Below, one piece after another: positions 36,365-64,000 of a DNA stretch of 64,000 nucleotides. The position numbers and the translations under genes were made by a program. The stretch's first letter is position 1. The number at the start of each line of letters is the position of its first letter. A model generated the notes under the pieces. That model was not told the DNA's origin. It did not search any database and saw only the letters and a list, made by a program, of their open reading frames with translations. Source of the stretch: Candidatus Omnitrophota bacterium (lineage in GTDB: Bacteria > Omnitrophota > Gorgyraeia > B26-G9); assembly GCA_043826565.1 (NCBI GenBank), contig JBDRPX010000028.1, forward strand, positions 16,607-80,606, given 5' to 3'.

Positions 36365-36369
36365 AATAG

Positions 36370-37251: not shown

Positions 37252-37252
37252 T

Positions 37253-37345: not shown

Positions 37346-37355
37346 TATCAAAATT

Positions 37356-43058: not shown

Positions 43059-44078
43059 ATGCCGGAATTAAGAAAAGATCCTTTAATCGGAAGATGGATA
43101 ATTATTGCCGCAGAACGCGGTAAGCGGCCGCATGATTTTATTGTCGAGCGTAAAGCTCCCAAGGAAGAAGACTGTCCTTTTTGCCAAGGCCAGGAACAGG
43201 AAACTCCTCCGGAAATAACTTCTGTACGGGATAATGGAACTGCTCCGGATTCTCCCGGATGGCAGGTGCGGGTTATCCCGAGTGCCCTGCCGCTAATGCA
43301 GATAGAAGGAGATATGGGGCGGCGCGGTAAAGGGATGTATGATCTTATGAACGGTATCGGGGCTCATGAACTTATTATTGATACTCCGGAGCATATCGCG
43401 AATATCGCGGATTTAGACCAGGAGCAGATCGCTAAGGTTTTTCGAGTATATGCCGAGCGCATGAAAGACTTAGAAGGCGATGAGCGGATAAAGTATGTTT
43501 TGATTTTTAAGAATTACGGCATTATTGCCGGAGCCAGTGCTTTGGGGCATTCCCGGACGCAGTTAATCGCGATGCCGGTCAACCCCCGCCGGGTCAAAGA
43601 AGAACTTGTCGGAGCGAGGCGTTACTATGAGTATCGTGAACGATGTATTTTTTGCGATATGATCAAGCAGGAAATTGATACCGATGCCCGGATCATTGCC
43701 CGGGAAGAAGGGTTTATTGCGATTGCGCCGTACGCCTCACGTTTTCCTTTTGAAATAATGGTTTTGCCGGAGAAGCATTGCTGTGATTTTTATACTATTG
43801 AAAATACGCTTGGTTTAGCAAAAATAATGAAGAAGGTTATGAAAAAATTATCGGTCGGCTTAAAAGATCCGCCGTATAATTATATTATTCATTCCGCGCC
43901 TTTTCGCAGAATGGTTTCCGCGGGTTATTGGAAAACTATTGATTATGATTATCATTGGCATATTGAGATTATGCCGAGATTGACAAAAGTTGCCGGATTT
44001 GAGTGGGGCAGCGGGTTTTATATTAATCCGACTCCGCCGGAACAGGCCGCGGAATTTTTGAAAGGGGTAAGGATTTAA
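43059..44078 (+). CDS. Galactose-1-phosphate uridylyltransferase-family (GalT/HIT-like) nucleotidyltransferase
   Basis: Zn-binding 'CPFCQGQE'. HIT-like 'HWHIEIMP'. 'GAHELIIDTPEH'. Confidence 0.7.
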   Translation: MPELRKDPLIGRWIIIAAERGKRPHDFIVERKAPKEEDCPFCQGQEQETPPEITSVRDNGTAPDSPGWQVRVIPSALPLMQIEGDMGRRGKGMYDLMNGIGAHELIIDTPEHIANIADLDQEQIAKVFRVYAERMKDLEGDERIKYVLIFKNYGIIAGASALGHSRTQLIAMPVNPRRVKEELVGARRYYEYRERCIFCDMIKQEIDTDARIIAREEGFIAIAPYASRFPFEIMVLPEKHCCDFYTIENTLGLAKIMKKVMKKLSVGLKDPPYNYIIHSAPFRRMVSAGYWKTIDYDYHWHIEIMPRLTKVAGFEWGSGFYINPTPPEQAAEFLKGVRI

Positions 44079-44236: not shown

Positions 44237-45265
44237 ATGATAGGAAGAAAAAATATGCAGCAGTTACGACGTGACCCAATTTTAGGCCGATGGATTATTG
44301 TGCATTATGACCGGGAAAAAGGGCCTCAGGATTATCAGGTTGAAGCCGTTAAAAAAGATGACAAAATGAAAGTCTGTCCTTTTTGCCCGGGACATGAGGT
44401 AAAAACTCCCGTGGAAATATATGTAGATAGAACTCCGAAAGCGCATTCGGAAGGCCCGGATTGGAATTTACGGGTTATTGCTAATAAATTTCCCGCGCTT
44501 TGTGTCGAAGGTGATTTATGCCGGGAGGGGTTGGGGATATATGATCAAATGAACGGCGTGGGAGCGCATGAAGTTATTATCGAGACACCGTATCATGATA
44601 AGGACCTGGGTGATTTACCGGTAGCGGATGTTAAAAAAGTCATCCTGGCTTATAAACACAGGTGTCTTGATCTAAAGAGAGATACCCGTTTTCAATATAT
44701 ATTAATATTTAAAAATCATGGAGCTCCGGCCGGAGCTTCTTTAGAACATTCCCATTCCCAGCTGATCGTTCTGCCGATTATGCCGAAAAAGGTTTTGCAG
44801 GCAATACAGGGGGCGGAGAATTATTATAAGTTTAAAGAACGCTGTGTGTATTGCGATATTATCCATCAGGAATTAGAGGATAAAGAGAGGCTGGTTTACG
44901 AGAATAAAAATTTTGTCGCTTTTGCTCCGTTTGCTTCCAGTTCGCCGTTTGAGACCTGGATAATTCCCAAGCGCCATGTTTCCCATTTTTATAATATTTC
45001 CGACGAACTTATCGAAGATTGCGCGGATATGCTGCGGGAGATTCTCTGGAGATTAAAAAAAGTATTGACAGACCCGCCATTTAATTTTATTATTAACACT
45101 GCTCCTATTCAGCGTGAAGAGGAGCTTAGTTTTTATCACTGGCACATAGAGATAGTGCCAAAACTCACCAGAGCTGCCGGGTTTGAATGGGGAACCGGTT
45201 TTTATATAAACCCGAGCCCGCCGGAAAAAGCTGCGCAATGGTTGCGCGAAGCAAAGAAAAAATAG
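44237..45265 (+). CDS. GalT/HIT-like nucleotidyltransferase, tandem paralog
   Basis: 'CPFCPGHE', 'HWHIEIVP', 'GAHEVIIETPYH'. About 45% identity to the upstream copy by eye. Confidence 0.7.
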   Translation: MIGRKNMQQLRRDPILGRWIIVHYDREKGPQDYQVEAVKKDDKMKVCPFCPGHEVKTPVEIYVDRTPKAHSEGPDWNLRVIANKFPALCVEGDLCREGLGIYDQMNGVGAHEVIIETPYHDKDLGDLPVADVKKVILAYKHRCLDLKRDTRFQYILIFKNHGAPAGASLEHSHSQLIVLPIMPKKVLQAIQGAENYYKFKERCVYCDIIHQELEDKERLVYENKNFVAFAPFASSSPFETWIIPKRHVSHFYNISDELIEDCADMLREILWRLKKVLTDPPFNFIINTAPIQREEELSFYHWHIEIVPKLTRAAGFEWGTGFYINPSPPEKAAQWLREAKKK

Positions 45266-48014: not shown

Positions 48015-48692
48015 ATGGTAAATAAAGATCCTTCTCCGGAAAAACGTTTATTAAAAATAATTGAAGGCAAACAGGATGAGTCGGCGATAGCTTCTACTTT
48101 GCGGCAGAGCAAAAAATTTATCGCGCCCAGCAGTTTAAGAGGAAGGATGTCTTTTCTAAAGGAGAAGTTTAAACGGGGGAAAAAGTCTCCCCGCCGTGCC
48201 GAGGCTTTTGATGTAAAGAAATTTAATGTATTTTTGCAATGCTGTGTTGTGCTTCTGGTTATTGCGCTGGGAGTAAATGTAACTATGGAAATTATTAGTA
48301 TAAATAAGGATCAATTAATTCCCGTGCCTAAGTTCGGCGCGAACGCGAACGCGGAACCGGCACAGATAGTTTCTTTGCTGCAGCCGCAGGATTACTATCT
48401 GCAAAAGGTAACTGACCGGGATCTTTTTAAATTTGGAGATATTCCGAAGAAAAAGGTGGATTTTAAAGAGGATACTCAGCCAAAAATCTCTAAATTGCAG
48501 AGCATGGTGCAAGGATTAAAACTGGTGGGGATTTCCTGGGGCGAGGTGCCGGATGCTATTATTGAGAACGGGAATCTTAATAAAACATATTTTGTCAAAA
48601 AAGGATCTGGAGTTGAAGATATGCAGGTAAAAGATATTTTAAAAGATATGGTAATTTTGAGTTTTGAAGGGGAAGTTTTTGAATTGAAATGA
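48015..48692 (+). CDS. Bitopic inner-membrane protein with a C-terminal PilP/GspC-like secretin-interaction domain
   Basis: Single TM (CCVVLLVIALGVNVTMEIISI). C-terminal 'LKLVGISWGEVPDAIIENGNLNKTYFVKKGSGVEDMQVKDI...VILSFEGEVFEL' resembles the PilP/GspC HR beta-sandwich. Confidence 0.5.
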   Translation: MVNKDPSPEKRLLKIIEGKQDESAIASTLRQSKKFIAPSSLRGRMSFLKEKFKRGKKSPRRAEAFDVKKFNVFLQCCVVLLVIALGVNVTMEIISINKDQLIPVPKFGANANAEPAQIVSLLQPQDYYLQKVTDRDLFKFGDIPKKKVDFKEDTQPKISKLQSMVQGLKLVGISWGEVPDAIIENGNLNKTYFVKKGSGVEDMQVKDILKDMVILSFEGEVFELK

Positions 48693-50476
48693 GAAAAAAA
48701 ATAGGGGGACTTATAACGCTGTTACTATTGGGGGCTTGCGCAAGAGTAGCGCAGGCTGAGGAGCTTGCTTCGGCAATATTACCTGTGCCGAGTCAGGTGC
48801 AGGTAACTTCTTTAGCGGAAGGTATCTATGGAAAGATTTCTTTAGACCTGCGGCAAATAGATATTAACGATGCCCTAAAATATTTTTCCTTAAAAAGCGG
48901 ATTAAATATTATTACTTCCAAAATGGTCAGCGGCCGGGTAACCTTGGTTGTTGAGGATGTTCCGGTAAAAGATGTTTTTGATATTATGCTGCGTTCAAAC
49001 GGATTGGCCTATGATAAGACCGGGGATATCTATAATGTAATGACCCAGGAGGAATACAAGACACTTTACGGAAAAAGGTTTTCTGATGTTCGTGTCGTGG
49101 AAGTGTTCCGGTTACAATACGCTCTTCCGGAACAGGCCTTTGCCATGCTTGATACTATTAAAAGTGAAATCGGACGGATATTAGTCGATACTGAATCAGG
49201 TACGGTTTTATGTCTGGATTCGCCGGGAAAAATTGAACAGATGAAAGCGGCTCTCGTGGGATTTGAAAGAGAAACATTGGTCAAAGTTTTTGATCTAAAC
49301 TATGCCAAAGCCGCGGTTGTCGAGGAGCAGTTAAAAAGCCGGCTTGATGAAAAAAAAGTTGGTTCGATCAAAGCGGATGTTCGTTCAAACCGGGTGGTTG
49401 TTCAGGCTTTGCCGGACCGGATGACGGAAATTGAAAAATTAATTAAAGCTTTGGATACTAAAACAAGAGAGGTTTTAATTGACGCTAAGGTTTTAAAGGT
49501 TAAAGTCGGCGATGAACTTAATGTTGGGGTAAGATGGGAAGGGCTTGCTGAGGTGGTCGGAGGTGATGATGGGCTGACTTATTTGGGGTCGTCTCCCTTT
49601 AGCGCTGTTCAGGCAACAACCGATGCCTGGCGTTCGCGAAAACAAGTTTATCAGGATGTCGGCTATGCCGGGTCCTATGCTAGTAGCGGAACAACTTCCA
49701 ATTATTCATCGGCAGCTTCGGCACTGGGTATAAATAATTTGCATTATGGGGTTATCGGATCAAGCGATATCGATGCTGTCCTAACTTATTTAAAAACAGA
49801 AAATAATGCTAAGATACTTTCTAATCCTAAAATTGCGGTAACGAATAATCAGGAAGCGCGTATCCATGTGGGAGAACGTCAGGCTTATGTTACGACTACG
49901 ACGACCAGCGGACAGTCAACCAGTACTATTTCCGAAGATGTAAATTTTATTGATATCGGAATTCAGATGCATGTTATCCCGACGATCAGTGAGAACGGGT
50001 TTGTCAATTTACAGATCAAAACGGAAATCAGCAGTGTGGTGGACGTATTAATTACTCCCACGGAAAACCGGATCCCGATCGTGGATACCTCACTTGCCGA
50101 AACAACTGTTTTGATCAAGGAAGGCAAGACTGTTATTATCGGAGGTTTACGCCGCGAAGAAGTATCCCAGACAGTTAGGCGGGTTCCGATCTTGAGTAAA
50201 ATCCCGATATTGGGTTTCTTGTTTAAGGAAAAATCAGAAAATAAATATACTACGGAATTGCTGATCATGATTACGCCGATTGTAATCACCGGAGATGTAT
50301 TAGTCTTGGAAGAAGGCAAGAAGATCGGGGTTCCGGAGATAAAAGAAGCTCAGGAATATAAAGAGCTTGAAAGAAGGAAAAAAGAAATTGAAACTTATCA
50401 GCCGGTACCAAGTGATTTAGGGGGCATGAATTTTAAAAAGTTCAAAGTATATGAGGGGATACGGGATAAGGACTAA
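48689..50476 (+). CDS. Secretin (type II secretion/type IV pilus PilQ/MshL-like outer-membrane channel), copy A
   Basis: Signal peptide. N-terminal N0/N1-like repeats. C-terminal secretin domain 'ILSNPKIAVTNNQEARIHVGERQAYVTTTT...TVLIKEGKTVIIGGL...VPILSKIPILGFLFK'. ATGA overlap with the upstream gene. Confidence 0.85.
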   Translation: MRKKIGGLITLLLLGACARVAQAEELASAILPVPSQVQVTSLAEGIYGKISLDLRQIDINDALKYFSLKSGLNIITSKMVSGRVTLVVEDVPVKDVFDIMLRSNGLAYDKTGDIYNVMTQEEYKTLYGKRFSDVRVVEVFRLQYALPEQAFAMLDTIKSEIGRILVDTESGTVLCLDSPGKIEQMKAALVGFERETLVKVFDLNYAKAAVVEEQLKSRLDEKKVGSIKADVRSNRVVVQALPDRMTEIEKLIKALDTKTREVLIDAKVLKVKVGDELNVGVRWEGLAEVVGGDDGLTYLGSSPFSAVQATTDAWRSRKQVYQDVGYAGSYASSGTTSNYSSAASALGINNLHYGVIGSSDIDAVLTYLKTENNAKILSNPKIAVTNNQEARIHVGERQAYVTTTTTSGQSTSTISEDVNFIDIGIQMHVIPTISENGFVNLQIKTEISSVVDVLITPTENRIPIVDTSLAETTVLIKEGKTVIIGGLRREEVSQTVRRVPILSKIPILGFLFKEKSENKYTTELLIMITPIVITGDVLVLEEGKKIGVPEIKEAQEYKELERRKKEIETYQPVPSDLGGMNFKKFKVYEGIRDKD

Positions 50477-50480
50477 AATT

Positions 50481-52874
50481 ATGAGAAAAAATAAAAGTAT
50501 TTATCGAGCAAGTTTACCTGCCGGGGGAATGCTGATCATTACCGCATTACTTATGGTTTTTGCGGTTAATGGATATGGTCAATCCGCGCCGGAAAAACCG
50601 CAGGCACAGGTATCTTCTATTGTCGCGACAATAGAACAGAATATGTCGGCTTTGGCCAAAGAATTAGATGATAACAAAAAAGCTTATGAACAGCTCAAGG
50701 AAGAGTATGATAAAAAACAGCAGGATTTAAGTTTTAGCCAGGATGAGGTAAAGGAATTAGAGAAGAATTTTGAAGAGCTAAAACAGGATTTTAAACAGAA
50801 ATCGCAGGCATTATTAGAAAAAAAGGCTGATGAGGTCGGAGCATACAAGGCGCAGATAGACAAATTGCAAAATGAAATAGACGAGAGAGGAAAAACAATT
50901 GTCCGGAAAAAGGAAGAGATCATATCTTTAGAAACCCAGCTGAAAGAAGAAAAGAGAATACTAGAGGACAAAGAAAAATCGTTAAAAGCAAAAGATTTAG
51001 AGATCAATGATCTGCAAAAACAATTAAGCGACTTTGACCGGCTGCTTAAAGAAGCACATAATTCCATTAATGACCTCAGGCAGGAGGATACCAAAAAAGA
51101 TAATCTGGTTGAATCTTTTCGCGCGGAAATGCATAAAAAACAAAAAGAATTTGATGATAATATGCAAAATGAACGAGGCCAGTTCCAAAAGAGGCTTTTT
51201 GATGAGGAGCAGAAAGAAGAGAAATTAAGAAGACAAAATGCCGACCAATTAAAGGAGTATACTAAACAGCTTCAGGATAAAGATGATTTAATGTCCGCGC
51301 AGAAAGAGATGCTGGTTAAAAAAGACAAGCTTATTAATGATCTTAATATTAGTTTGGATAAGCAAAAACTGGATAATGAAAATATTCGTAAACAGAATAA
51401 TATTCTGGCCGAAGAAAAGAAACAGCTGCTGCTTAATATTTCTGTTTTTGAAGAGGAGATCGGTAAGCAGGGGTCTTTATTGAAGAATGGCAAACAGAAT
51501 TTGACTGTCGCGCAAAAGGAACAAGAGTATCTTCAGAAGGAGCAGCAGGATCTTAAAAAGAGATATGAAGAATTACACAATGAAAAAGAGGTTTATTTGA
51601 GCAAAAGTCAGTATCTTGAAAAACAGGTAGAAGAAAGAGATAAAAAATTGCAGGCATTGCGGGATGATATCCAGAAACAGGTAACTTTGCTGCATCAGCA
51701 GCTTGGCGGGGTGGTTCAGCAGACTCAGGACCCGCAGAATAAACAAGCATTGAAAGATAAACGGGATGAGCTTGAACAGATAAATCTTTCCTCTAAGCAG
51801 CAGGAGCGGGAATTACGCAAACAAATAGATGATCTTAAATCAGAAAAGCAGGATCTTTTTAATCAGAGTAATAATCTGATCCAGGAAAAACTTCAGATTC
51901 TGGCCAGGATGGTCCAGCTGGAAGCGCAGCAAAAGGCTTCCGGAGCTTCGGATGGAGCTGTCGGTATGTCTGAGGAAGAAATTGCCTATGTAAAACATGA
52001 ATTAGAGAATCTTAATAAATCATTAGATAAAAAAGCAAGTGAACTGGGTAAAGTCCAGGAAGAAAATTATAAGCTGTTTAAAGAAAAAGAGGAGCTGCGA
52101 AAACTTGTTAATGATTGCAATGATCAGATAACTTCTCAAAAGAAGCAGCTTAATGACCTGCAGGAAATGATGCGGAATAATGAGAATGAAAGCCAGTTGA
52201 AAGTTCGCGATATGAGAAAAGACCTTGATGGTCAAAGGGCTGAGTTCCAGAGAGTTTCTAAAGAATTGGAGAAAAAGAATGCTTTATATGATAAGGATAT
52301 AAAGAAATACTTAGCCCGCTGTGAAGATTTCCGGGGTAAATTAGCGGCTTCCCAGGAGAAATATGATACGATGAAAGCTGATTACGATATTTATGTAAAA
52401 CGTATCAAAGAAGTATACTCAGAGCAGCGCAAATTAGAAGGAAGGGTCCAAGAGCAGATTAAACTTCTTAATACATACTCAAAAACTATTGACGAGCTGA
52501 GCGCGGACAACAAGTCTATGGAAACGGAAAATGAGCGGCTGGGGTTGTTGTTAAAGACAATTCCGCAGAAATTAAATACTTTGGAAAGTGATGTCGCCCA
52601 ATTACGCAAACAAAATTCTACTTTACATTATAACTTAGGGGTTTTTCATACGCAGCGCCAGGAATATCCGCAGGCAATCGCGGAATTTAAACAGTCTTTA
52701 AAATATAATCCCAATGACGCGAGTACCCATTATAATATGGGCGTTATTTATTCGCAGTATTTAGTTGATGAATCCAGTGCGGTTATGCATTTTAGGCATT
52801 ATCTGTCGCTTGATCCTAATGATAAAGATTCTCAGCGGGCAAAAGAATATATTTTGCTCTGGGGAAGTAAATAA
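50481..52874 (+). CDS. Membrane-anchored long coiled-coil protein with a C-terminal TPR domain (MshN/PilF-like partner candidate), copy A
   Basis: N-terminal TM/signal anchor. About 650 aa of K/E/Q-rich heptad coiled coil. C-terminal 'LHYNLGVFHTQRQEYPQAIAEFKQSLKYNPNDASTHYNMGVIY' TPR units. Confidence 0.6.
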   Translation: MRKNKSIYRASLPAGGMLIITALLMVFAVNGYGQSAPEKPQAQVSSIVATIEQNMSALAKELDDNKKAYEQLKEEYDKKQQDLSFSQDEVKELEKNFEELKQDFKQKSQALLEKKADEVGAYKAQIDKLQNEIDERGKTIVRKKEEIISLETQLKEEKRILEDKEKSLKAKDLEINDLQKQLSDFDRLLKEAHNSINDLRQEDTKKDNLVESFRAEMHKKQKEFDDNMQNERGQFQKRLFDEEQKEEKLRRQNADQLKEYTKQLQDKDDLMSAQKEMLVKKDKLINDLNISLDKQKLDNENIRKQNNILAEEKKQLLLNISVFEEEIGKQGSLLKNGKQNLTVAQKEQEYLQKEQQDLKKRYEELHNEKEVYLSKSQYLEKQVEERDKKLQALRDDIQKQVTLLHQQLGGVVQQTQDPQNKQALKDKRDELEQINLSSKQQERELRKQIDDLKSEKQDLFNQSNNLIQEKLQILARMVQLEAQQKASGASDGAVGMSEEEIAYVKHELENLNKSLDKKASELGKVQEENYKLFKEKEELRKLVNDCNDQITSQKKQLNDLQEMMRNNENESQLKVRDMRKDLDGQRAEFQRVSKELEKKNALYDKDIKKYLARCEDFRGKLAASQEKYDTMKADYDIYVKRIKEVYSEQRKLEGRVQEQIKLLNTYSKTIDELSADNKSMETENERLGLLLKTIPQKLNTLESDVAQLRKQNSTLHYNLGVFHTQRQEYPQAIAEFKQSLKYNPNDASTHYNMGVIYSQYLVDESSAVMHFRHYLSLDPNDKDSQRAKEYILLWGSK

Positions 52875-52887
52875 AAACAGAATACAG

Positions 52888-54711
52888 ATGACAGAATACA
52901 GAAAACAGAAATTAAATATCCTGATAATATATTTTGCTCTGGCTTTATGCGGCAGTGTGTGCCGGGCAGATGAGAATAAAGAATATGCCGCTTTGCCAGT
53001 ACCCGCGGCTAATGGAATGATCTCAAATTTGGCGATAACGAAAGAGCGGATATCTTTGGAGTTGCGGGATATAGATATTAAAGACGCGCTTAAATATTTA
53101 GCATCCAAGGCCGAGATTAACATTGTTCCGACAAATCAGGTTTCCGGACGCATAACCTTAATGATTAAAGATGCGCCGATTGATGATGTTTTTGAAATGG
53201 TTATCCGTTCCAACGGGCTGGCGTATGATAAGATTGGAAGTATTTACAATGTTATGACGGAAACAGAATACAAGGAACGCTATGGACAGGCGTTTGATGA
53301 CCGCAGGCATCTTGAGGTCTTTCATCTTAAATATGTAATACCGGAACAGGCGTATTCAATAATTGATTCTATCAAAAGCACAATCGGAAAAGTTTTAATA
53401 GAGAACGATTCCGGGACGATTTTAGTTTTGGATACCCCGGAGAAATTAGAAGAAATAAGAAAGACCATTAAATCCTTAGAGCGCAAAGGTACTGTACGGA
53501 TGTTTGATTTAAAGTATGCCAACGCAGAAGATGTCGCAAAACAGCTTAAGTCACAGCTGGATAAGAAAAAAGTAGGGTCTATCCGGGCGGATCAGCGTAC
53601 GAATCAGGTGATTGTGCAGACTTTACCGGAACGTATGGACAATATTGCCAAATTGATCGAAGGCTTAGATCAAAAGACAAAAGAAGTTTTGATCCAGGCC
53701 CGGATCATCCAGATAAAACTTACGGATAATCTTAGTGAAGGCGTGGAATGGGAAGGATTGTTTGAGCTCTCAAAAGGCAGTAACAGCACGACGTATCTGG
53801 GCAGTACCCCGGTCGCGGCTGTGGGCAGTCCGGTGGATACTTGGCGCTCAAGACAGCAGGTGCTTGCCGATACCGGATATGTCGGGTCATATCCGTTTAG
53901 CGGAACATCCACGGATTATGCCAGCGGGCAGAGCAGTGTCGGGACCGAACAAATGCATGTCGGAGTTGTCGGCGAGAGTGATTATGATGTATTGATAAAA
54001 TATTTAAAAACATTAGGGCATGTGCAGATATTATCTAATCCAAAACTGGCGGTAACGAATAATCAGCAGGCACGTGTGCATGTCGGCGAGCGGCAGGCAT
54101 ATATAACTACGGTTACTACGGCCGGACAGACGACAACCACAGTTTCTGAAGAAGTTACTTTTCTTGACGTGGGTTTGCAGTTGTTTATTACTCCGACGAT
54201 TAACGATCAGGGATATGTAACATTAAATATTAAACCGGAGATAAGCAGTGTGGTGGGTACATTGTTAACCGCGCAGAATAACAAGATTCCGATCATTGAT
54301 ACTTCCACAGCGGAAACTACGGTCATGGTCAAGGATGGAGCAACAGTTGTAGTCGGAGGATTGCGCAGAGAGGAAGAGACATCTAGTTCCCGGCGCATGC
54401 CGATACTGGGAAGTATCCCTTTTTTGGGGAATTTATTTAAGACTGAAGATCGAGGAAAATCACGTAATGAATTATTAATCATGGTTACCGCGCATATTAT
54501 CGAAGGGGATGAGTTGATCACCGGCGATGACCGTGATTTTGGAAGTAAATCACATGAAAAATATCAGGAATATAATTTAATGACTAACGAATCGGATTTA
54601 ACAGAGTATGAGAAAGAACAGAAAAAAACATTAGAGCAGAAGATGTACCAGGAATATCCGGAATATAAGGAAGATAAAGAATTTTACCCCGACTTAAAAC
54701 CATTAAAATAA
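52888..54711 (+). CDS. Secretin, copy B (paralog of 48689..50476)
   Basis: Start ATG 52888 with signal peptide (MTEYRKQKLNILIIYFALALCGSVCRA). Collinear with copy A at about 50% identity ('ILSNPKLAVTNNQQARVHVGERQAYITTVTT', 'VVVGGLRREEE', 'MPILGSIPFLGNLFK'). Confidence 0.85.
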   Translation: MTEYRKQKLNILIIYFALALCGSVCRADENKEYAALPVPAANGMISNLAITKERISLELRDIDIKDALKYLASKAEINIVPTNQVSGRITLMIKDAPIDDVFEMVIRSNGLAYDKIGSIYNVMTETEYKERYGQAFDDRRHLEVFHLKYVIPEQAYSIIDSIKSTIGKVLIENDSGTILVLDTPEKLEEIRKTIKSLERKGTVRMFDLKYANAEDVAKQLKSQLDKKKVGSIRADQRTNQVIVQTLPERMDNIAKLIEGLDQKTKEVLIQARIIQIKLTDNLSEGVEWEGLFELSKGSNSTTYLGSTPVAAVGSPVDTWRSRQQVLADTGYVGSYPFSGTSTDYASGQSSVGTEQMHVGVVGESDYDVLIKYLKTLGHVQILSNPKLAVTNNQQARVHVGERQAYITTVTTAGQTTTTVSEEVTFLDVGLQLFITPTINDQGYVTLNIKPEISSVVGTLLTAQNNKIPIIDTSTAETTVMVKDGATVVVGGLRREEETSSSRRMPILGSIPFLGNLFKTEDRGKSRNELLIMVTAHIIEGDELITGDDRDFGSKSHEKYQEYNLMTNESDLTEYEKEQKKTLEQKMYQEYPEYKEDKEFYPDLKPLK

Positions 54712-54714
54712 AAG

Positions 54715-55695
54715 GTGGCTAAAGTGAGACTACTAATAATTACAATTGTTGTAAGTTGTATCATGGCGATGCCCGGAAATGTATTCAGTCAAGCAGCGGA
54801 TGATCATGTGAAGATAAAGGCGGAGTATGAAAAGCTGCGTAAGGAAAATGAAGACATCTCCAATGACCGGGATAATTTACGGGCTCAGATGAAAGTGCTT
54901 TTGCAATATAAAAGTGAGATCGTCAAGGCTCAGGAGATGGTAAATCAGACGAAGATGGAGCGCAATCAGTGGGAAACCCAGAAAAAACTGCTGCAGAATG
55001 AGAATCAAAATCTGCAAGATAGGATGAATCTGCTTAAAGCGCAGATAGATGACCATGAATCTGAACGGCTGCAGTTTGAGGCAGAAAGAGATAATATGAG
55101 AAAGTCTTTGTCTAAATCCAAAGCTGGATATATAATAGTAGACGATCTCAAAAGAAAAAACAGTGAAGAAAAAAGGAATAATAGCCTATTGCAAAAACAG
55201 ATTGCCGGCTTAGAGAAAAGAGTAAAAACGCTTACTGAAGAATCAGGAAAAATGGAGACAATTGAGGAGGTATTGCGCAGCCAGTTAAAGGAGCTTAAAG
55301 ATAAATACGCCCAGGCGCAGAAGAAAAACAAATCTTTTGAGAAAAAACTAGAACAGCAGCCGAAGCGGTACGCGGAAGTTGCCCGGGAGAATAAAGTTTT
55401 ATTAAAGCGCACGGCGTTGATGCATTATAACCTAGGGGTCTTTTACACAAAGGGGAAAGAGTATCCCCGGGCGATTGCGGAATTCGAAAAAGCTGTAGAA
55501 CTTAACCCTGAAGATACTTACGCTTATTTTAATTTAGGGTATATTTACGCGGAACACTATGTGGATAGGCCCAAAGCAATTGATAATTTCCGAAAATATC
55601 TGAGTTTGGCGAAAAAGGAGGATAAAGATGTGGACTGGGTAAAGAGGTATATTCTTACCTGGGAGACTTGGGAAGGTAAAGAGATAACTAAATAA
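54715..55695 (+). CDS. Coiled-coil protein with a C-terminal TPR domain, copy B (shorter paralog of 50481..52874)
   Basis: Signal/TM. Coiled coil. C-terminal 'LMHYNLGVFYTKGKEYPRAIAEFEKAVELNPEDTYAYFNLGYIY' aligns with the copy A C-terminus. The start is uncertain (GTG 54715 or 54724). Confidence 0.6.
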   Translation: MAKVRLLIITIVVSCIMAMPGNVFSQAADDHVKIKAEYEKLRKENEDISNDRDNLRAQMKVLLQYKSEIVKAQEMVNQTKMERNQWETQKKLLQNENQNLQDRMNLLKAQIDDHESERLQFEAERDNMRKSLSKSKAGYIIVDDLKRKNSEEKRNNSLLQKQIAGLEKRVKTLTEESGKMETIEEVLRSQLKELKDKYAQAQKKNKSFEKKLEQQPKRYAEVARENKVLLKRTALMHYNLGVFYTKGKEYPRAIAEFEKAVELNPEDTYAYFNLGYIYAEHYVDRPKAIDNFRKYLSLAKKEDKDVDWVKRYILTWETWEGKEITK

Positions 55696-56363: not shown

Positions 56364-57467
56364 ATGCTGAAAATATCCGATATTTTAAAAAAAGCCAAAG
56401 TACGCAAAAATAAAGAGGGGGGGGGGCCTTCTCCCAAACCTGCTGTTCCTGAATCGTCCAAAGCACCGGAATCTAAAAAGGCAGAGATAGCCAGGAGGGT
56501 GAAAAAACATCCTCCGGAAGATACTTTGCCCAAGAAGTCTTCAGGAAAAGAAAAAGCGGTGCCGGTCTTACCGATAGACAGTGATGAAGCCATCGGAAAA
56601 TATGAAACGGCAATAGCATTACTAAAAGATATCATGGAACCTCTGGCGGAAAAAAGAGATGATTTAATAGATGCCGCGGATAATCTGATCGAAAATATTA
56701 TTGAATTGCTTAAAAAAGATGATTCAGCTTTGATGGGGCTTTTTTTTCGGGATTATGAGGTATTAAAGGAGTATGTTTATCAACATTCGATTAATGTATG
56801 TGTTCTGGCCTTAAGGATCGGTTTGAATTTAGAATGTGATTTTGGTCATCTTAAAAAACTGGGGATGGCTGCGCTGCTTCATGATTTGGGCCAGTTAAAG
56901 TTTGAATCACTTGTAAATAAACCGCGGAAGCTTGAACAGAGTGAATATGAAAAAATAAAAAGTCATCCTGCCGTAGGCAGGGATATCTTAAAAAAGTTTG
57001 CGAGAAAATTGGATCTCAAGATTTTAGATGTTATATATCAAGAGCATGAACGGATCAACGGCACCGGATATCCGCAGGGGTTAAGCAAAGATATGATTGC
57101 CGATGACGCTAAACTGATCGGGATGGTTGATGTTTATGAAGCTTTAGTTCATTCCCGCCCGCATCGGTCAAAATTCGGCGGGCATGAAGCTATCCAGATG
57201 ATCATAAAAGAAAAAAGTAGTTTTGAATATAATTTAATAAAGGTTTTAATCGATACCATTGGTTTGTTTCCTCTGGGAACACTGGTCGAGTTAAATACAA
57301 AGGAAATAGGTATCGTCGTCAATCAAAATCCCAAAATGCCATTGAAGCCGATTATTGATATAACTCATAATATCAATAAACAAAAGTTATCGAAACCTAA
57401 GCGCGTCGATTTATCAAAGAATTACGCTATTTATATAAAACAGTGCTTTGATGAGCTTCAGGATTAA
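56364..57467 (+). CDS. HD-GYP-like domain protein (stand-alone, no receiver), with a G10 tract near its 5' end
   Basis: 'LLHDLGQLKF', 'HERINGTGYPQGL' (GYP motif), 'HSRPHRSKFGGHEAIQMI'. N-terminal Lys/Pro-rich low-complexity region. Confidence 0.65.
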   Translation: MLKISDILKKAKVRKNKEGGGPSPKPAVPESSKAPESKKAEIARRVKKHPPEDTLPKKSSGKEKAVPVLPIDSDEAIGKYETAIALLKDIMEPLAEKRDDLIDAADNLIENIIELLKKDDSALMGLFFRDYEVLKEYVYQHSINVCVLALRIGLNLECDFGHLKKLGMAALLHDLGQLKFESLVNKPRKLEQSEYEKIKSHPAVGRDILKKFARKLDLKILDVIYQEHERINGTGYPQGLSKDMIADDAKLIGMVDVYEALVHSRPHRSKFGGHEAIQMIIKEKSSFEYNLIKVLIDTIGLFPLGTLVELNTKEIGIVVNQNPKMPLKPIIDITHNINKQKLSKPKRVDLSKNYAIYIKQCFDELQD

Positions 57468-61863: not shown

Positions 61864-61982
61864 AAATATGCATTTTGTTAGAAGATATCCTGTCTTTACC
61901 GGCGAATAGCCGTCCGGATAAACCGAGGAGCATTTTTAATCATAACATGTTTATTTATAGCTGGTTCTGGCTATGGATTTAT

Positions 61983-62011
61983 TTGCAAAAACCCCGTCAA
62001 TATGGTATACT
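61983..62011 (+). promoter_or_regulatory. Sigma70-like promoter TTGCAA-N17-TATACT upstream of the Kdo-transferase-like gene
   Basis: TTGCAA at 61983-61988, 17-nt spacer, TATACT at 62006-62011. About 85 nt upstream of the ATG at 62095. Confidence 0.35.
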
Positions 62012-62094
62012 TTAAAACCTTTTCTAATTCATGAAAACTTATTGTAACATGTTTAAGATGTTTAAGTTAGTTAAATAATAATTAAATTAAAATT

Positions 62095-64000
62095 ATGAAA
62101 ATATATAAAAAAATAAACCACATAATAATAATTTTGCTGGTGCAGGCACTGGTGATAGGCAGCATTGCTTTCGCGGCCCCGGAAATCATTGATGTGCCGC
62201 GCCGGACACAGGTTAATCTGGCGCCTTCCTTAGGAATTAGCAATTCGGGTTTCCAAAGAGCGTTTACTGATAAAAGCGGAAATAATTCACAACGGCTTCC
62301 CCTGAATAATGTTAAAAAAGTCGGGGCAAAGGTGGAGAAATTAAGGGGGAAAACTGAAGTTCTGGTTAAGCGTATAGTTGAAGCTGTTCTGCGTAAACTG
62401 CCGGATGGATATGTCGCGAAATTTTTATATTGGCAGATGCTGGTTGCCAGAAAATTAAGAGATGTGCATTTCAAAGGTTTTTTAGAGGAGATCTCTTTTA
62501 AAAGGATAAGCCGGTGGTTTAATTATCAGGGTGAACTTTCCCGGGAATTAGCCGGGGAAAAGATCATCTGGATTAATGGGATCGATGTTGGAGAGTGGAA
62601 TATCGCCGAATCATTAGTACGTGACCTGCAAAAAAAATATCCCGGACATAAACTAGTACTCTCTTCTCCTTATAAGATGGGTGTTGAATACGCTAAAAAT
62701 AAATTTCCCGGAGTTAAGGTAGTGTATACTTCTTACGGAATGCCGGTACTTAGGCCGGGTTTTTTTAAAAGCATTAATGTGGAATTGTTCATCATGATCG
62801 AAGGCCCCGGGCGTTCTGTTCCGGAATGGTTTAAAGCGATTAAACAAAAAGGCGGAAAGGTTATTGTGGTCAACGGACTGGCGCATTCTTTTATTGATAG
62901 AGTTTCCTATCGGGCATATCCGGATGAATTGTTTGGCAATATTGATGTACTTCTTGTGCGGGATCAGGCAGAACTTCAACAGATTCGCAACGATGGGTTA
63001 CCGGTTTCCCAGGTACAAGTAGCCGGAGATATAAAATTTGATACTTCTTCAATAACGGTTTCTGAGAGTCAACAGGAACAATTAAGGAATCTTTTGGGAA
63101 TAAATAACAATACTCCGGTTTTATTAGCCGGCAGTACCTGGCCGGGAGAACCGGAAATAATAATCCGGGCTTATGAAAAATTGAAACAGAAATATCCGGA
63201 TTTAGTTTTAATTCTCGCGCCCCGGCGGATGGATACAGTGGAGGAAACAATGGCGGCAGTGCCGAAGCGGTTTAGATGCCTCAGAAAAACAGAATTAGCC
63301 GCGGATCGTTCTTTTAGTTCTCCGTCGCCGGATATTGTGGTTCTGGATACGGTAGGGGAATTGCGTCAGTTTTACAGTATTTGTTCAGTAGCGATTATCG
63401 GGAATAGTTTTGGAAAGCAGCATGGAGGGCATAATCCCTTAGAACCGGCTAACTTTGCTAAACCGGTGGTTTTCGGCCCGAACATGGAACATTTTGCGAC
63501 AATGACCAGTTTGATGTTTAAAAGAAATGCGGCCATACAGGTAGCGGACGAAACAGAGTTATATGCCGCGTTAGAACGTTTATTTTCCGACAGCCGCCTG
63601 CGTGTTGAATATGGTAATGCCGCGCATCAGGTACTTCAGGAAAACCGCGGAGCAGTAGAGCGGACAATGCAGGTAATAGACGGCTTATTGAATCCGGAAC
63701 AAGTTCAGGATGTTGCGGGTGTGGAGGGTATAAGGCAGAGAGATAAATATGATTATGATGATATTTCTGCGTTGTACGGTAAGGTTTATGAGCGGAGGAA
63801 GCTGCAGGGAAATATGGGGTGGCTGATCAATCATATCCGCCGGGGTGCGGCAATAGTAGAAAATGTCGCGGATAGAATGGGGCTGAGTAAGAAAGATAAA
63901 GCAATAGTGCTTAATGCTTTTTTTATGCATGATCTGGGAAAACTATATAGTGAAGATTTATGGGCGATTGTTTCTTCGAATGAAATATATCCCCGAAAGG
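62095..64000 (+). CDS. 3-deoxy-D-manno-octulosonic-acid (Kdo) transferase-like glycosyltransferase with a C-terminal HD-domain extension; partial, continues past the window end
   Basis: My own translation reads with no stop from the ATG at 62095 to 64000 (it is absent from the ORF track because it has no in-window stop). N-terminal TM. 'IWINGIDVGEWNIAESL' and 'GGHNPLEPANFAKPVVFGPNMEHF' resemble Kdo transferase (WaaA/KdtA). The last ~70 aa, 'INHIRRGAAIVENVADRMGLSKKDKAIVLNAFFMHDLGK', look like an HD domain. Confidence 0.6.
   Translation, partial: MKIYKKINHIIIILLVQALVIGSIAFAAPEIIDVPRRTQVNLAPSLGISNSGFQRAFTDKSGNNSQRLPLNNVKKVGAKVEKLRGKTEVLVKRIVEAVLRKLPDGYVAKFLYWQMLVARKLRDVHFKGFLEEISFKRISRWFNYQGELSRELAGEKIIWINGIDVGEWNIAESLVRDLQKKYPGHKLVLSSPYKMGVEYAKNKFPGVKVVYTSYGMPVLRPGFFKSINVELFIMIEGPGRSVPEWFKAIKQKGGKVIVVNGLAHSFIDRVSYRAYPDELFGNIDVLLVRDQAELQQIRNDGLPVSQVQVAGDIKFDTSSITVSESQQEQLRNLLGINNNTPVLLAGSTWPGEPEIIIRAYEKLKQKYPDLVLILAPRRMDTVEETMAAVPKRFRCLRKTELAADRSFSSPSPDIVVLDTVGELRQFYSICSVAIIGNSFGKQHGGHNPLEPANFAKPVVFGPNMEHFATMTSLMFKRNAAIQVADETELYAALERLFSDSRLRVEYGNAAHQVLQENRGAVERTMQVIDGLLNPEQVQDVAGVEGIRQRDKYDYDDISALYGKVYERRKLQGNMGWLINHIRRGAAIVENVADRMGLSKKDKAIVLNAFFMHDLGKLYSEDLWAIVSSNEIYPRK

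What the first reader, a model, noticed from the sequence alone, without database searches (positions are those of the whole stretch)
62095..64000. Kdo-transferase-like glycosyltransferase apparently fused to a C-terminal HD domain (ORF runs off the contig)
My translation of the + strand from the ATG at 62095 runs without a stop to 64000. The first ~470 aa look like WaaA/KdtA, with an N-terminal TM and a 'GGHNPLEPA...FGPNMEHF' region. After a linker, the last ~70 aa (INHIRRGAAIVENVADRMGLSKKDKAIVLNAFFMHDLGK) resemble the start of an HD/HD-GYP domain. A WaaA-HD fusion would couple LPS core synthesis to a phosphohydrolase or signalling domain, which is unusual. The three minus-strand ORFs in the ORF track here (62082-63250) are almost certainly spurious shadows of this gene.
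Basis: partly seen in the sequence, partly recalled or inferred. Interest (0 to 1): 0.5.

Follow-up and report, generated by a model that had tools for sequence, protein, structure and literature searches.

The report
Kdo-transferase-like enzyme fused to HD phosphodiesterase
The gene is real and encodes one 781-residue protein that joins an unusual relative of the LPS Kdo transferase to a metal-dependent phosphodiesterase domain related to cyclic-dinucleotide signalling enzymes; I found this combination nowhere else, and its function is not established.

Summary
The + strand frame from ATG 62095 has no stop up to base 64000. The complete product is a 781-aa protein of a Candidatus Omnitrophota MAG (MFH2138409.1). 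A second assembly carries it on a contig 100% identical to the window.

Both domains pass Pfam thresholds: Glycos_transf_N (GT30) and HD. The fusion is genuine. HD-module homology starts within about 5-20 residues of the end of the GT homology, and GC content is uniform across the junction.

The interpretation needs correcting:
- The GT is not a canonical WaaA. It belongs to a tiny clade that is monophyletic in 100/100 bootstraps. The clade keeps the CMP site and the catalytic Gly-Glu, Glu and Lys, but its acceptor-side motifs are rebuilt.
- The HD part derives from the HD-GYP lineage. It keeps all metal ligands but lacks the GYP and KPG motifs and carries RPYQ.
- Both modules otherwise occur in odd multidomain proteins, including giant membrane-threaded ones (5,700 to more than 6,800 aa).

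An exhaustive search of 1.84 billion representative proteins listed no other protein with both domains. Functional coupling, perhaps nucleotide second-messenger turnover at a site of envelope glycolipid synthesis, is inferred and not shown. This is a new variant of known kinds, of moderate interest.

The parts
62095..64000 (+). Coding sequence, codons 1-635 of a 781-codon gene. It runs off the window end; the stop would be at 64438-64440.
   Evidence: No stop in frame. The full protein P0001 and contig L001 carry the rest. Nucleotide identity to L001 is 1906/1906.
61982..62011 (+). Promoter-like site (TTTGCA/TTGCAA, 17-18 nt spacer, TG-extended TATACT) about 85 nt upstream of the ATG, inside a 648-bp AT-rich gap after the PGI gene.
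   Evidence: Consensus scan only. The count of 6 promoter-like sites is barely above the shuffle mean of 3.5, so the evidence is weak. No Rfam element lies in the gap.
62122..62178 (+). aa 10-28, the only strongly hydrophobic segment (IIIILLVQALVIGSIAFAA). K2, K5 and K6 precede it and A25-F26-A27|A28-P29 follows: signal-peptide or signal-anchor-like.
   Evidence: Kyte-Doolittle 19-residue mean of 2.74. The interpretation rests on the positive-inside and AxA rules and is inference.
62179..62406 (+). aa 29-104, a polar and basic linker. It is lineage-specific and has no counterpart in canonical WaaA.
   Evidence: Alignment with canonical WaaAs. It is partly collinear with P0094 and P0092.
62407..62460 (+). 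aa 105-122 (GYVAKFLYWQMLVARKLR), which aligns with the N-terminal membrane helix of canonical WaaA but is amphipathic here.
   Evidence: Alignment. Mean hydropathy is about 0.3 and hydrophobic moment about 1.1.
62512..63042 (+). GT30 N-terminal (acceptor) Rossmann domain, aa 140-316. It carries W159-INGIDVGEWN-169 (G166/E167 kept; His to N161, Ser to D164), E236, a rebuilt ExELWPN region and K314 of GDIKFD.
   Evidence: Pfam PF04413, 70 bits. Residue mapping to A. aeolicus WaaA G30/E31/E98/K162 uses and PMC6286764.
63070..63708 (+). GT30 C-terminal (CMP-sugar donor) Rossmann domain, aa 326-538. P376-R377, G421, L423, N447 and E450 match the CMP-contacting residues of A. aeolicus WaaA.
   Evidence: phmmer to PDB 2xci (E 2.7e-19) and 4bfc. 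Alignments. E450 is invariant, and P376, R377, G421 and L423 are nearly invariant across 42-45 sequences.
63709..63762 (+). Junction, aa 539-556. It has no stop and no room for an intergenic spacer. HD-module homology to giant-protein modules begins at aa 542 (G11) to 557 (P0167, G12).
   Evidence: BLASTP coordinates. HMMER places the P0167 match at 522-759. GC is uniform across the junction.
63763..64000 (+). First 79 residues (aa 557-635) of the HD-GYP-derived phosphodiesterase module, which spans aa ~542-758 and so continues outside the window. H580 is at 63832-63834 and H612-D613 at 63928-63933. The remaining ligands H647, H673/H674 and D695 and the R705-P-Y-Q708 motif lie beyond the window.
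   Evidence: Pfam HD 38.5 bits on the full protein. Module alignment. PDB profile hits 4mcw and 5z7c. AF2 model with pLDDT 82.8 and Foldseek top hits to HD-GYP structures.
62082..63250 (-). Three antisense ORFs (62082-62474, 62653-62979, 62891-63250). They are non-coding shadows of the + strand gene.
   Evidence: All have TTG starts and no Pfam family. The + strand here is conserved at the protein level with seven homologues.

Best explanation
Shown: the locus encodes one 781-aa, two-enzyme protein of an Omnitrophota bacterium. Its order is:
- a signal-peptide-like hydrophobic N-terminus (aa 10-28);
- a basic linker;
- a divergent GT30 (Kdo-transferase family) GT-B glycosyltransferase (aa ~105-538);
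- immediately after it, an HD-GYP-derived metal-dependent phosphohydrolase module (aa ~542-758).

The GT keeps every residue known to bind CMP and to catalyse transfer in WaaA. Its acceptor-side motifs are rebuilt, and it belongs to a tiny separate clade. The HD module keeps the full binuclear metal-ligand set (H580, H612/D613, H647, H673/H674, D695) and an RxYQ motif. It has lost the GYP loop and the KPG motif. Each module recurs elsewhere only in shuffled multidomain or giant membrane-threaded proteins of Omnitrophota- or Planctomycetota-type MAGs.

Inferred mechanism:
- The GT transfers Kdo, or a related ulosonic acid, from a CMP-activated donor to a membrane glycolipid acceptor. That acceptor is not bound the way lipid IVA is bound by WaaA.
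- The tethered HD module hydrolyses a phosphodiester, most probably of a cyclic dinucleotide or related signalling nucleotide. The RxxQ motif points towards a cGAMP-like ligand rather than c-di-GMP.
- Nucleotide-signal turnover would then be placed at the same membrane site as envelope glycolipid or polysaccharide assembly.

Whether the two activities regulate each other or are merely co-anchored is open.
For: Fusion is real:
- The frame is open.
- The same 781-aa product appears in the NCBI and Logan assemblies, and the DNA is identical.
- GC is uniform across the junction.
- Module homologies abut at aa 533-557.

GT30 membership:
- PF04413 scores 70 bits.
- NCBIfam WaaA models reach E 1.6e-63.
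- PDB WaaA 2xci and 4bfc are hit.
- G166/E167, E236, K314, P376/R377, G421, N447 and E450 correspond to Aa WaaA G30/E31, E98, K162, P211/R212, G248, N273 and E276.

Separate clade:
- Six relatives score 267-386 bits, against 213 bits or less for canonical WaaAs.
- They share the motif W[IV]N[AG]xG[VIL]GE[WF]N (P0001 itself has Asp at the central Gly) and an E-x-P insertion in place of ETELWPN.
- NJ bootstrap support for the clade is 100/100.
- A canonical WaaA exists in Omnitrophota: P0099, MCK4423117.1.

Lipid context:
- Clade member P0092 fuses the GT to a PlsC-type acyltransferase.
- L008 has MsbA-like ABC genes next to two tandem clade members.
- The window carries an LpxL-type acyltransferase at 36370-37251.

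HD module:
- The profile hits HD-GYP structures 4mcw (E 6e-6) and 5z7c (E 1.2e-4).
- All 120 best database hits to the module profile carry PF13487, many with HD-GYP-type sensory partners such as REC or GAF.
- The AF2 model has pLDDT 82.8. Its best Foldseek matches are DvhD, PmGH and PA4781 HD-GYP domains and PgpH.
- Ligand conservation holds in all four module members, except that P0167 has Ser for the second His of HH.
- The RxxQ variant is linked to cGAMP specificity in preprint 10.1101/2021.11.05.467447.

Signalling-rich neighbourhood: three other HD-GYP-type genes lie in the same 64 kb, and a Wza-like exporter lies two genes upstream.
Against: - No biochemical data exist for either module family.
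- The fusion is a singleton: one protein, one organism, effectively one read set. Conservation of the architecture therefore cannot be used as evidence of coupling.
- The partners of both modules elsewhere are heterogeneous. They include acyltransferase, tandem repeats, GNAT, MTase, radical SAM, LOG, CheB and sigma70 domains. This suggests promiscuous domain concatenation in these lineages.
- The HD module lacks the GYP Tyr and the KPG motif that contact c-di-GMP in PmGH. A cyclic-dinucleotide substrate is therefore a guess.
- The N-terminus reads as a signal peptide or N-in anchor. That would place both nucleotide-dependent domains outside the cytoplasm, contrary to the proposed chemistry.
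- No riboswitch or other regulatory RNA was found upstream.
Confidence: 0.5

Rival explanations
1. It is the organism's ordinary housekeeping WaaA (lipid IVA Kdo transferase) that has acquired an accessory C-terminal HD domain.
For: - GT30 family membership and an intact CMP and catalytic residue set.
- No second GT30 gene in the 64-kb window.
- An LpxL-type Kdo-dependent late acyltransferase gene lies in the window, so the organism should need a Kdo transferase.
Against: - It scores less than half of every NCBIfam WaaA equivalog cutoff.
- It falls in a separate clade with 100/100 bootstraps.
- The proposed lipid IVA 1-phosphate contacts of A. aeolicus WaaA (S28, S54, R56) are replaced by D164, Y193 and M195. 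The ELWPN segment containing W102 is also rebuilt.
- Clade members occur as tandem duplicates and inside a 6142-aa repeat protein.
- A canonical WaaA with all motifs exists in Omnitrophota.
- Only 64 kb of the genome was visible, so absence of a second GT30 gene is not informative.
Confidence: 0.2
2. The fusion is real but functionally neutral. It would be a product of the unusually free concatenation of enzyme modules in Omnitrophota and Planctomycetota-like genomes. The GT and the HD module would then act independently and merely share a membrane anchor.
For: - Every member of the GT clade has a different architecture.
- The HD module sits in ORFs of 1866, 5719 and more than 6886 aa. Its neighbours there are MTase, radical SAM, GNAT, LOG/SLOG, CheB, HTH and sigma70 domains, with many hydrophobic segments between them.
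- The GT+HD combination occurs once among 1.84e9 representative proteins.
Against: - Metal ligands and catalytic residues are retained in both modules, so both are under selection.
- The junction is tight, with no degenerate spacer.
- Neither point excludes independence. This rival overlaps with the best explanation and differs only on coupling.
Confidence: 0.3
3. It is an exported or secreted effector. The N-terminal segment would be a cleaved Sec signal peptide, and the GT+HD protein would act outside the producer's cytoplasm, possibly on or in prey or host cells.
For: - An n-region with three Lys, a 15-18-residue h-region and an A-F-A|A-P site.
- Similar N-termini in clade members P0090, P0094 and giant P0089.
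- Two secretin genes, an RHS toxin-like gene and a large adhesin-like gene in the same window.
- Omnitrophota giant proteins have been proposed to act in prey adhesion and cell-wall digestion, with genes near type II secretion genes (bioRxiv 10.1101/2023.11.21.568195; abstract as I recall it, not read here).
Against: - Leloir GTs and HD-GYP-type enzymes need cytoplasmic nucleotide substrates.
- P0091 and P0092 lack such an N-terminus.
- No dedicated signal-peptide or topology predictor was available, so the reading is by rule of thumb.
Confidence: 0.1
4. It is an assembly or sequencing artefact: two adjacent genes (a GT30 gene and an HD gene) merged by a frameshift error or a chimeric join.
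For: Only one organism and effectively one data set support it. The NCBI MAG and the Logan contig may derive from the same reads.
Against: - Two assemblers give identical sequence over 7.6 kb.
- GC stays at 0.40-0.47 across the junction.
- GT homology ends at aa ~533-538 and HD-module homology begins at aa 542-557 in the same frame. That leaves no space for a stop, spacer, ribosome-binding site and start.
- The relatives of the HD module are themselves always internal modules, not free-standing genes.
Confidence: 0.03

Closest known systems
WaaA/KdtA, CMP-Kdo:lipid IVA Kdo transferase (CAZy GT30; A. aeolicus structures 2XCI/2XCU; E. coli b3633)
   Same: - GT-B fold family by sequence: PF04413 plus a C-terminal donor domain.
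- 28-32% identity to canonical WaaAs.
- Conserved CMP contacts (P376/R377, G421, N447, E450).
- Conserved Gly-Glu (G166/E167), E236 and K314.
   Different: - Below all equivalog cutoffs.
- WxHAxSxGE becomes WINGIDVGEWN (His to Asn, Ser28 to Asp).
- The TxTG and ETELWPN motifs are rebuilt, with a 2-residue insertion.
- The canonical N-terminal membrane helix is only amphipathic.
- A 104-aa N-terminal extension and a C-terminal HD module are added.
- It forms a separate clade with 100/100 bootstraps.
HD-GYP cyclic-dinucleotide phosphodiesterases (PmGH 4MCW, DvhD 9RBZ, PA4781 4R8Z, V-cGAP3 5Z7C; Pfam HD_5/HD)
   Same: - Best sequence-profile and fold matches.
- H...HD...H...HH...D metal-ligand set.
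- HDxGK Lys.
- DA...RPY motif after the last ligand.
   Different: - The 7-residue GYP loop is deleted (YHHTPEKIED against HHERWDGTGYP).
- The KPG motif is not recognisable (EIYPRK).
- The RxY[K/R] motif is RPYQ.
- No acidic residue is evident at the third-metal position (W576).
- There is no Pfam HD_5 hit.
- A conserved extra C-terminal extension of about 60 aa (CRH...LYP) is present.
- It is attached to a glycosyltransferase rather than to a sensory domain.
PgpH (7TMR-HD) c-di-AMP phosphodiesterase, 4S1B
   Same: A membrane-anchored HD-domain nucleotide phosphodiesterase without a GYP motif. It is among the best fold matches and a weak profile hit.
   Different: Only marginal sequence similarity (E 0.64). 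PgpH has seven TM helices and an extracellular sensor, not a GT.
Other GT30 fusions seen here: kinase (PF06293)-GT30 proteins P0069 and P0073; GT30-acyltransferase P0092; tandem GT30 P0093
   Same: They show that Kdo-transferase-family domains do get fused to other enzymes, in several cases LPS- or lipid-related ones.
   Different: None has an HD domain. P0069, P0073 and P0093 score with the canonical WaaAs or lower and were not examined further; only P0092 is in the divergent clade.
Second-messenger-controlled polysaccharide synthases such as BcsA (GT2 + PilZ). From my own knowledge, not tested here.
   Same: A glycosyltransferase and a cyclic-dinucleotide-related domain sit in one membrane protein.
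   Different: BcsA carries a receptor (PilZ), not a hydrolase. It belongs to GT2, not GT30, and makes a processive polymer. Here no ligand binding is shown.

Membership tests
GT30 Kdo transferase (WaaA/KdtA) | Glycos_transf_N (PF04413) domain above Pfam's gathering score | tested here: met
   70.1-70.7 bits against a cutoff of 23.9, aa 152-316.
GT30 Kdo transferase (WaaA/KdtA) | CMP-binding residues of the C-terminal domain (A. aeolicus P211/R212, G248, L250, N273, E276) | tested here: met
   P376/R377, G421, L423, N447 and E450 align with these residues. E450 is invariant across the alignment.
GT30 Kdo transferase (WaaA/KdtA) | Catalytic and acceptor-cleft residues G30/E31, E98 and K162 | tested here: met
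   G166/E167, E236 and K314. K162 was mapped to the GNLKF Lys through the 2xci alignment.
GT30 Kdo transferase (WaaA/KdtA) | Score above the NCBIfam equivalog cutoff for lipid IV(A) Kdo transferase | tested here: not met
   The best model, NF004388, scores 214.7 bits against a cutoff of 438. The other four models are further below.
GT30 Kdo transferase (WaaA/KdtA) | Canonical acceptor-side motifs (WxHAxSxGE with Ser28; S54/R56 region; ExELWPN with W102) | tested here: not met
   The corresponding residues are N161, D164, Y193 and M195, and EGPGRSVPEW carries a 2-residue insertion. The same changes run through the six-member clade.
GT30 Kdo transferase (WaaA/KdtA) | Hydrophobic N-terminal membrane helix directly preceding the GT domain | tested here: not met
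   The aligned segment, aa 105-122, has mean hydropathy of about 0.3. The only TM-like segment is aa 10-28, about 75 residues upstream.
GT30 Kdo transferase (WaaA/KdtA) | Transfer of Kdo from CMP-Kdo to lipid IVA | not testable with these tools
   This needs an enzyme assay or complementation.
HD superfamily phosphohydrolase | Pfam HD (PF01966) above the gathering score, with H...HD...D ligands | tested here: met
   38.5 bits against 22 on the full protein. The window-truncated part scores only 18 bits. H580, H612/D613 and D695 are present.
HD-GYP c-di-GMP/cGAMP phosphodiesterase | Full metal-ligand set H, HD, H, HH, D | tested here: met
   H580, H612/D613, H647, H673/H674 and D695 align with the PmGH ligands.
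HD-GYP c-di-GMP/cGAMP phosphodiesterase | GYP motif (HHExxDGxGYP; the Tyr contacts the substrate phosphate) | tested here: not met
   The loop is deleted in all four module members. The G, G and Y columns are gaps in P0001.
HD-GYP c-di-GMP/cGAMP phosphodiesterase | KPG motif that binds the second base | tested here: not met
   EIYPRK stands in its place, with a 4-residue insertion.
HD-GYP c-di-GMP/cGAMP phosphodiesterase | RxY[K/R] motif that sets guanine specificity | tested here: inconclusive
   The motif is R705-P-Y-Q708, an RxxQ variant. The preprint associates RxxQ and RxxN variants with cGAMP preference. Three of the four modules have Q and one has K.
HD-GYP c-di-GMP/cGAMP phosphodiesterase | Pfam HD_5 (PF13487) match | tested here: not met
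   No HD_5 hit at E <= 0.01 on P0001. All 120 best remote hits of the module profile do carry PF13487.
HD-GYP c-di-GMP/cGAMP phosphodiesterase | Fold similarity to solved HD-GYP domains | tested here: met
   Foldseek: 9rbz at E 8.7e-5 with TM 0.70 normalised to the target; 4mcw and 4r8z follow. Caveat: the model was built from an MSA of HD-GYP proteins.
HD-GYP c-di-GMP/cGAMP phosphodiesterase | Hydrolysis of c-di-GMP or cGAMP | not testable with these tools
   This needs an enzyme assay.

The most novel reading that the evidence does not exclude
The protein would be the first case of a cyclic-dinucleotide phosphodiesterase-type domain covalently coupled to a Kdo-family glycosyltransferase. A GYP-less, RxxQ-type HD module would sense or degrade a cGAMP-like or other signalling nucleotide. 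It would thereby gate addition of an ulosonic acid to a non-lipid-IVA envelope glycolipid. The same two module families would serve as building blocks of the giant membrane-threaded multi-enzyme proteins of Omnitrophota and Planctomycetota.
Probability: 0.15. Interest if true: 0.7.

Novelty: new variant of a known kind. Interest (0 to 1): 0.4.

Why it matters
If the two halves are functionally coupled, envelope glycolipid synthesis would be wired directly to nucleotide second-messenger turnover within one polypeptide. This is not known for any GT30 enzyme.

Three results stand even without coupling:
- A small, well-separated GT30 clade keeps the CMP-sugar donor site but has a rebuilt acceptor site. 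GT30 enzymes may therefore act on acceptors other than lipid IVA.
- A GYP-less offshoot of the HD-GYP domain retains all its metal ligands.
- Both modules are parts of the poorly understood giant proteins of ultra-small, possibly predatory bacteria. This 781-aa protein is a tractable 'mini' version in which those modules could be expressed and assayed.

The practical weight is limited, because there is one sequence, from one uncultured organism, with no functional data.

Tried and rejected
1. A single-sequence AF2 model of the full protein was unusable (pLDDT 38.6).
2. A full-length MSA model was not obtained. I modelled the HD module alone instead.
3. The word-index search with the HD part alone found nothing, not even P0001 itself. 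The profile search returned only generic HD-GYP proteins.
4. The genome-contig scan with P0001 found no relative. The source MAG or close species are therefore not among the scanned representatives, or the peptide patterns were too strict.
5. The metagenome scan with the module profile recovered only the P0167 contig as a true member. The other 32 loci are ordinary HD proteins at 24-32% identity, and none has a GT30 domain nearby.
6. Viral contigs hold neither the HD module nor the clade's GT motif. The DNA motif I wrote would not match P0001 itself, which has Asp at the Gly position, so that negative result is weak.
7. I looked for a c-di-GMP or other riboswitch upstream and found none.
8. 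I considered whether the HD module is a recent duplicate of the neighbouring HD-GYP gene at 56364-57467. It is not: identity is only 23% over 110 aa.
9. The contig L008 seemed at first to pair a canonical WaaA with a clade member. The 436-aa gene proved to be a second clade member (WINAIGVGEWN). It therefore gives no evidence of co-occurrence with a canonical WaaA.
10. The library held no paper containing both 'Kdo transferase' and 'HD domain', and neither Omnitrophota giant-gene preprint mentions Kdo or an HD domain.
11. The first tree script timed out. It was redone with a faster distance routine.


Full report
**1. The observation**

Translating window 62095-64000 on the + strand gives 635 codons without a stop. 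The frame is absent from the ORF list only because it runs off the window end.

The same sequence is the N-terminal 635 residues of a 781-aa database protein, P0001. NCBI holds it as MFH2138409.1, 'MAG: glycosyltransferase N-terminal domain-containing protein [Candidatus Omnitrophota bacterium]', on an 87.6-kb contig.

An independent Logan assembly of run SRR26275510 carries the whole gene on contig L001 (9.4 kb), followed by a LexA-like gene. L001 matches the window at all 7,637 overlapping bases.

**2. Domain content**

- Pfam finds Glycos_transf_N (PF04413) at aa 152-316 with 70 bits.
- Pfam finds HD (PF01966) at aa 578-699 with 38.5 bits on the complete protein. Both are above the gathering scores.
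- On the window-truncated piece the HD match is sub-threshold at 18 bits.
- NCBIfam's five WaaA equivalog models align across aa 140-533 (best E 1.6e-63). All score less than half of their cutoffs.
- PDB WaaA structures 2xci and 4bfc are the only solved relatives of the GT part.

**3. Is the fusion real?**

- GT homology to relatives ends at aa ~533-538.
- Homology of the HD module to its relatives begins at aa 542 (giant ORF in L011) to 557 (P0167, L012) in the same frame. HMMER extends the P0167 match back to aa 522.
- That leaves no room for a stop, a spacer and a new start.
- GC stays at 0.40-0.47 through the junction.
- Two assemblies agree base for base, though they may share reads.

I rate an artefact at about 3%.

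**4. The glycosyltransferase is a GT30 enzyme but not an orthodox WaaA**

An exhaustive HMMER scan of 1.84 billion representative proteins found six close relatives at 267-386 bits: P0089, P0090, P0091, P0092 and P0094, plus P0093, which is a tandem canonical WaaA. Ordinary WaaAs begin below that, at 213 bits or less.

I aligned the clade with E. coli WaaA, canonical WaaAs and the A. aeolicus sequence recovered from PDB alignments. I then mapped the residues listed in the review PMC6286764.

Conserved residues:

| A. aeolicus WaaA | P0001 | Role |
|---|---|---|
| G30/E31 | G166/E167 | Gly-Glu; E31 is the proposed catalytic base |
| E98 | E236 | acceptor cleft |
| K162 | K314 | GNLKF Lys |
| P211/R212 | P376/R377 | CMP contact |
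| G248 | G421 | CMP contact |
| L250 | L423 | CMP contact |
| N273 | N447 | CMP contact |
| E276 | E450 | CMP contact |

Changed features:
- WxHAxSxGE is WINGIDVGEWN here. The clade consensus is W[IV]N[AG]xG[VIL]GE[WF]N.
- The proposed 1-phosphate contacts S28, S54 and R56 become D164, Y193 and M195.
- ETELWPN, which includes W102, becomes EGPGRSVPEW with a 2-residue insertion.

A neighbour-joining analysis included seven clade sequences, among them a second copy in L008, and 41 canonical WaaAs. It recovers the clade in 100 of 100 bootstraps. A canonical WaaA with all the usual motifs exists in Omnitrophota (P0099, MCK4423117.1).

I could not test whether the same genome has both kinds. There is no other GT30 gene in the 64-kb window, and the genome collection scan did not find the MAG. 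The donor is therefore most likely a CMP-activated ulosonic acid. The acceptor site is remodelled, so the acceptor may differ from lipid IVA.

**5. Architectures in the GT clade are all different**

- P0089/P0240 is a 6142-aa protein. It has a signal-like N-terminus, the GT at 1016-1472 and long arrays of ~96-aa repeats.
- P0092 (1294 aa) adds a PlsC-type acyltransferase. In the Raetz pathway a Kdo-dependent acylation follows Kdo transfer, so this points to a lipid acceptor.
- L008 has two tandem clade genes around a GT8-like gene, next to MsbA-like ABC genes.
- P0090 and P0094 have signal-like N-termini and short tails.

**6. The HD module**

The module (aa ~542-758) has only three detectable close relatives, at 41-47% identity:
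- an internal segment of P0167 (1866 aa);
- internal segments of two giant ORFs in MAGs labelled Planctomycetales and Planctomycetia. L012 holds a 5719-aa ORF. L011 is a 20.6-kb locus that is one open frame of more than 6886 aa running off both ends.

A profile of the module hits the HD-GYP structures PmGH 4mcw (E 6e-6) and V-cGAP3 5z7c (E 1.2e-4), and weakly PgpH. Against 5.8 billion proteins, all 120 best hits carry PF13487 (HD_5), and many pair it with REC, GAF or HDOD-type (PF08668) domains.

An AF2 model of aa 520-781 built on that alignment is confident (pLDDT 82.8, pTM 0.80). Its best Foldseek matches are HD-GYP domains (DvhD 9rbz, PmGH, PA4781) and PgpH. The MSA consisted of HD-GYP proteins, which may bias the model towards that fold.

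All metal ligands are present (H580, H612/D613, H647, H673/H674, D695). They are conserved among the four module members, except that P0167 has Ser for the second His of HH.

Measured against the criteria in Galperin and Chou (10.1101/2021.11.05.467447), the module departs from HD-GYP in these ways:
- It lacks the GYP loop, a 7-residue deletion in all four members.
- It lacks the KPG motif.
- It has no obvious acidic residue for a third metal.
- It carries RPYQ in place of RxY[K/R]. The preprint reports that RxxQ and RxxN variants shift specificity towards 3'3'-cGAMP.

It is thus an HD-GYP-derived, probably active, binuclear phosphodiesterase of unknown substrate, and not a member of the HD-GYP family proper. 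It is not a copy of the nearby HD-GYP gene at 56364-57467 (23% identity).

**7. Context**

Upstream on the same strand lie the following:
- an HD_5/HD-GYP gene (56364-57467, with INGTGYP);
- a 564-aa coiled-coil protein;
- a Wza-like Poly_export/SLBB protein;
- a PGI-family protein.

A 648-bp AT-rich gap follows, with a weak promoter-like site and no Rfam element.

The window also holds two RpfG-like REC+HD_5 genes, an LpxL-type lipid A acyltransferase, GT28- and GT2-type transferases, twin secretins, an RHS protein and a 2498-aa Ig-repeat protein. The organism is therefore Gram-negative-like, with lipid A late acylation and a rich HD-GYP signalling repertoire.

**8. Mechanism**

Shown:
- one polypeptide;
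- an intact GT30 donor and catalytic apparatus;
- an intact HD metal site;
- HD-GYP ancestry of the HD module.

Inferred:
- The GT transfers Kdo or a related sugar from a CMP donor to a membrane glycolipid.
- The HD module hydrolyses a signalling nucleotide phosphodiester.
- Co-tethering links the two activities.

I put about 0.9 on the structural statement. I put about 0.25-0.3 on real functional coupling. The fusion is unique, and both modules are promiscuously shuffled in these lineages.

The giant ORFs combine the HD module with MTase, radical SAM, GNAT, LOG/SLOG, CheB, HTH and sigma70 domains. About 20 hydrophobic segments separate those domains.

**9. An unresolved problem**

The only strongly hydrophobic segment is aa 10-28. 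It has three lysines in front and A-F-A|A-P behind, so it reads as a Sec signal peptide or an N-in anchor. The place of the usual WaaA membrane helix is merely amphipathic.

Taken at face value, both nucleotide-dependent domains would lie outside the cytoplasm. That conflicts with their chemistry, or else hints at an exported effector. No dedicated predictor was available to settle this.

**10. Novelty and score**

I found no description of a GT30-HD protein, or of either module family, in the searchable literature.

The finding is a new domain architecture made of divergent members of two known superfamilies, so I class it as a new variant of a known kind. Interest is moderate (0.4). The fusion is real, unique and linked to the puzzling giant proteins of Omnitrophota. 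It is also a singleton from an uncultured organism with no functional evidence.

Noticed in passing
L011 1-20660 (CAZRVK010000003.1) and L012 77-17236 (CAZWJT010000006.1): Giant ORFs in MAGs labelled Planctomycetales and Planctomycetia. L011 is one uninterrupted frame of more than 6886 aa that runs off both ends of the locus. L012 encodes 5719 aa. The enzyme-like domains MTase, radical SAM, GNAT, HD, LOG/SLOG, CheB methylesterase, HTH_3 and sigma70 r2/r4 were seen in L012; only an 11-kb central part of L011 was scanned, and it showed MTase and HD. Both ORFs carry about 20 strongly hydrophobic segments, so they read like operons fused into membrane-threaded polyproteins.
   Followed up: partly
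L005 3261-21689 (GCA_964431495.1, CAYSJU010000014.1): A 6142-aa protein (P0089/P0240). It has a signal-like N-terminus, the divergent GT30 domain at aa 1016-1472 and long arrays of ~96-aa tandem repeats with no Pfam match. A Leloir-type GT embedded in a giant repeat protein is odd.
   Followed up: partly
L008 4532-8180 (FLOH01001696.1): Two tandem paralogues of the divergent GT30 clade flank a 239-aa GT8-like gene. MsbA-like ABC_membrane and ABC_tran genes lie upstream. This may be a small glycolipid-assembly cassette.
   Followed up: partly
window 29722-30798, 30939-31988 and 56364-57467: Three further HD-GYP-type genes lie in 64 kb. Two are adjacent RpfG-like response regulators (REC + HD_5). 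The third is a stand-alone HD_5 protein with an intact INGTGYP motif.
   Followed up: partly
window 48689-50476 and 52765-54711, with 50451-52874 and 54715-55695: Two secretin genes (STN + Secretin_N + Secretin) alternate with large coiled-coil/TPR proteins. This looks like a duplicated secretin plus pilotin-like or docking module.
   Followed up: no
window 2262-9758 and 11788-16008: A 2498-aa protein with 8 FlgD_ig and 6 CHU_C (type IX secretion signal-like) matches plus other Ig-like domains. Nearby is a 1406-aa RHS-repeat/DUF6531 protein typical of polymorphic toxins.
   Followed up: no
window 27739-28566: An AbiEii-type nucleotidyltransferase toxin gene (type IV toxin-antitoxin or abortive infection). 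The overlapping upstream ORF 27144-27773 has no Pfam match and could be the antitoxin.
   Followed up: no
window 43059-44078 and 44237-45265: Two adjacent GalT/HIT-like (galactose-1-phosphate uridylyltransferase family, DUF4921) genes, apparently a tandem duplication.
   Followed up: no
window 35240-38021: A cluster of an MGDG-synthase/GT28-like transferase, an LpxL-type lipid A late acyltransferase (Lip_A_acyltrans, 154 bits) and a GT2 transferase. It shows that the organism acylates a lipid A-type molecule.
   Followed up: no
P0001 aa 1-29 (window 62095-62181): The N-terminus looks like a cleavable Sec signal peptide (MKIYKK, a hydrophobic core, then AFA|AP). This is at odds with cytoplasmic nucleotide-dependent catalysis by the GT and HD domains.
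   Followed up: partly
tool behaviour: The word-indexed protein search did not return P0001 or P0167 for queries made from their own HD modules, although both are in the collection. Negative results from that tool for internal modules of long proteins should not be trusted.
   Followed up: no
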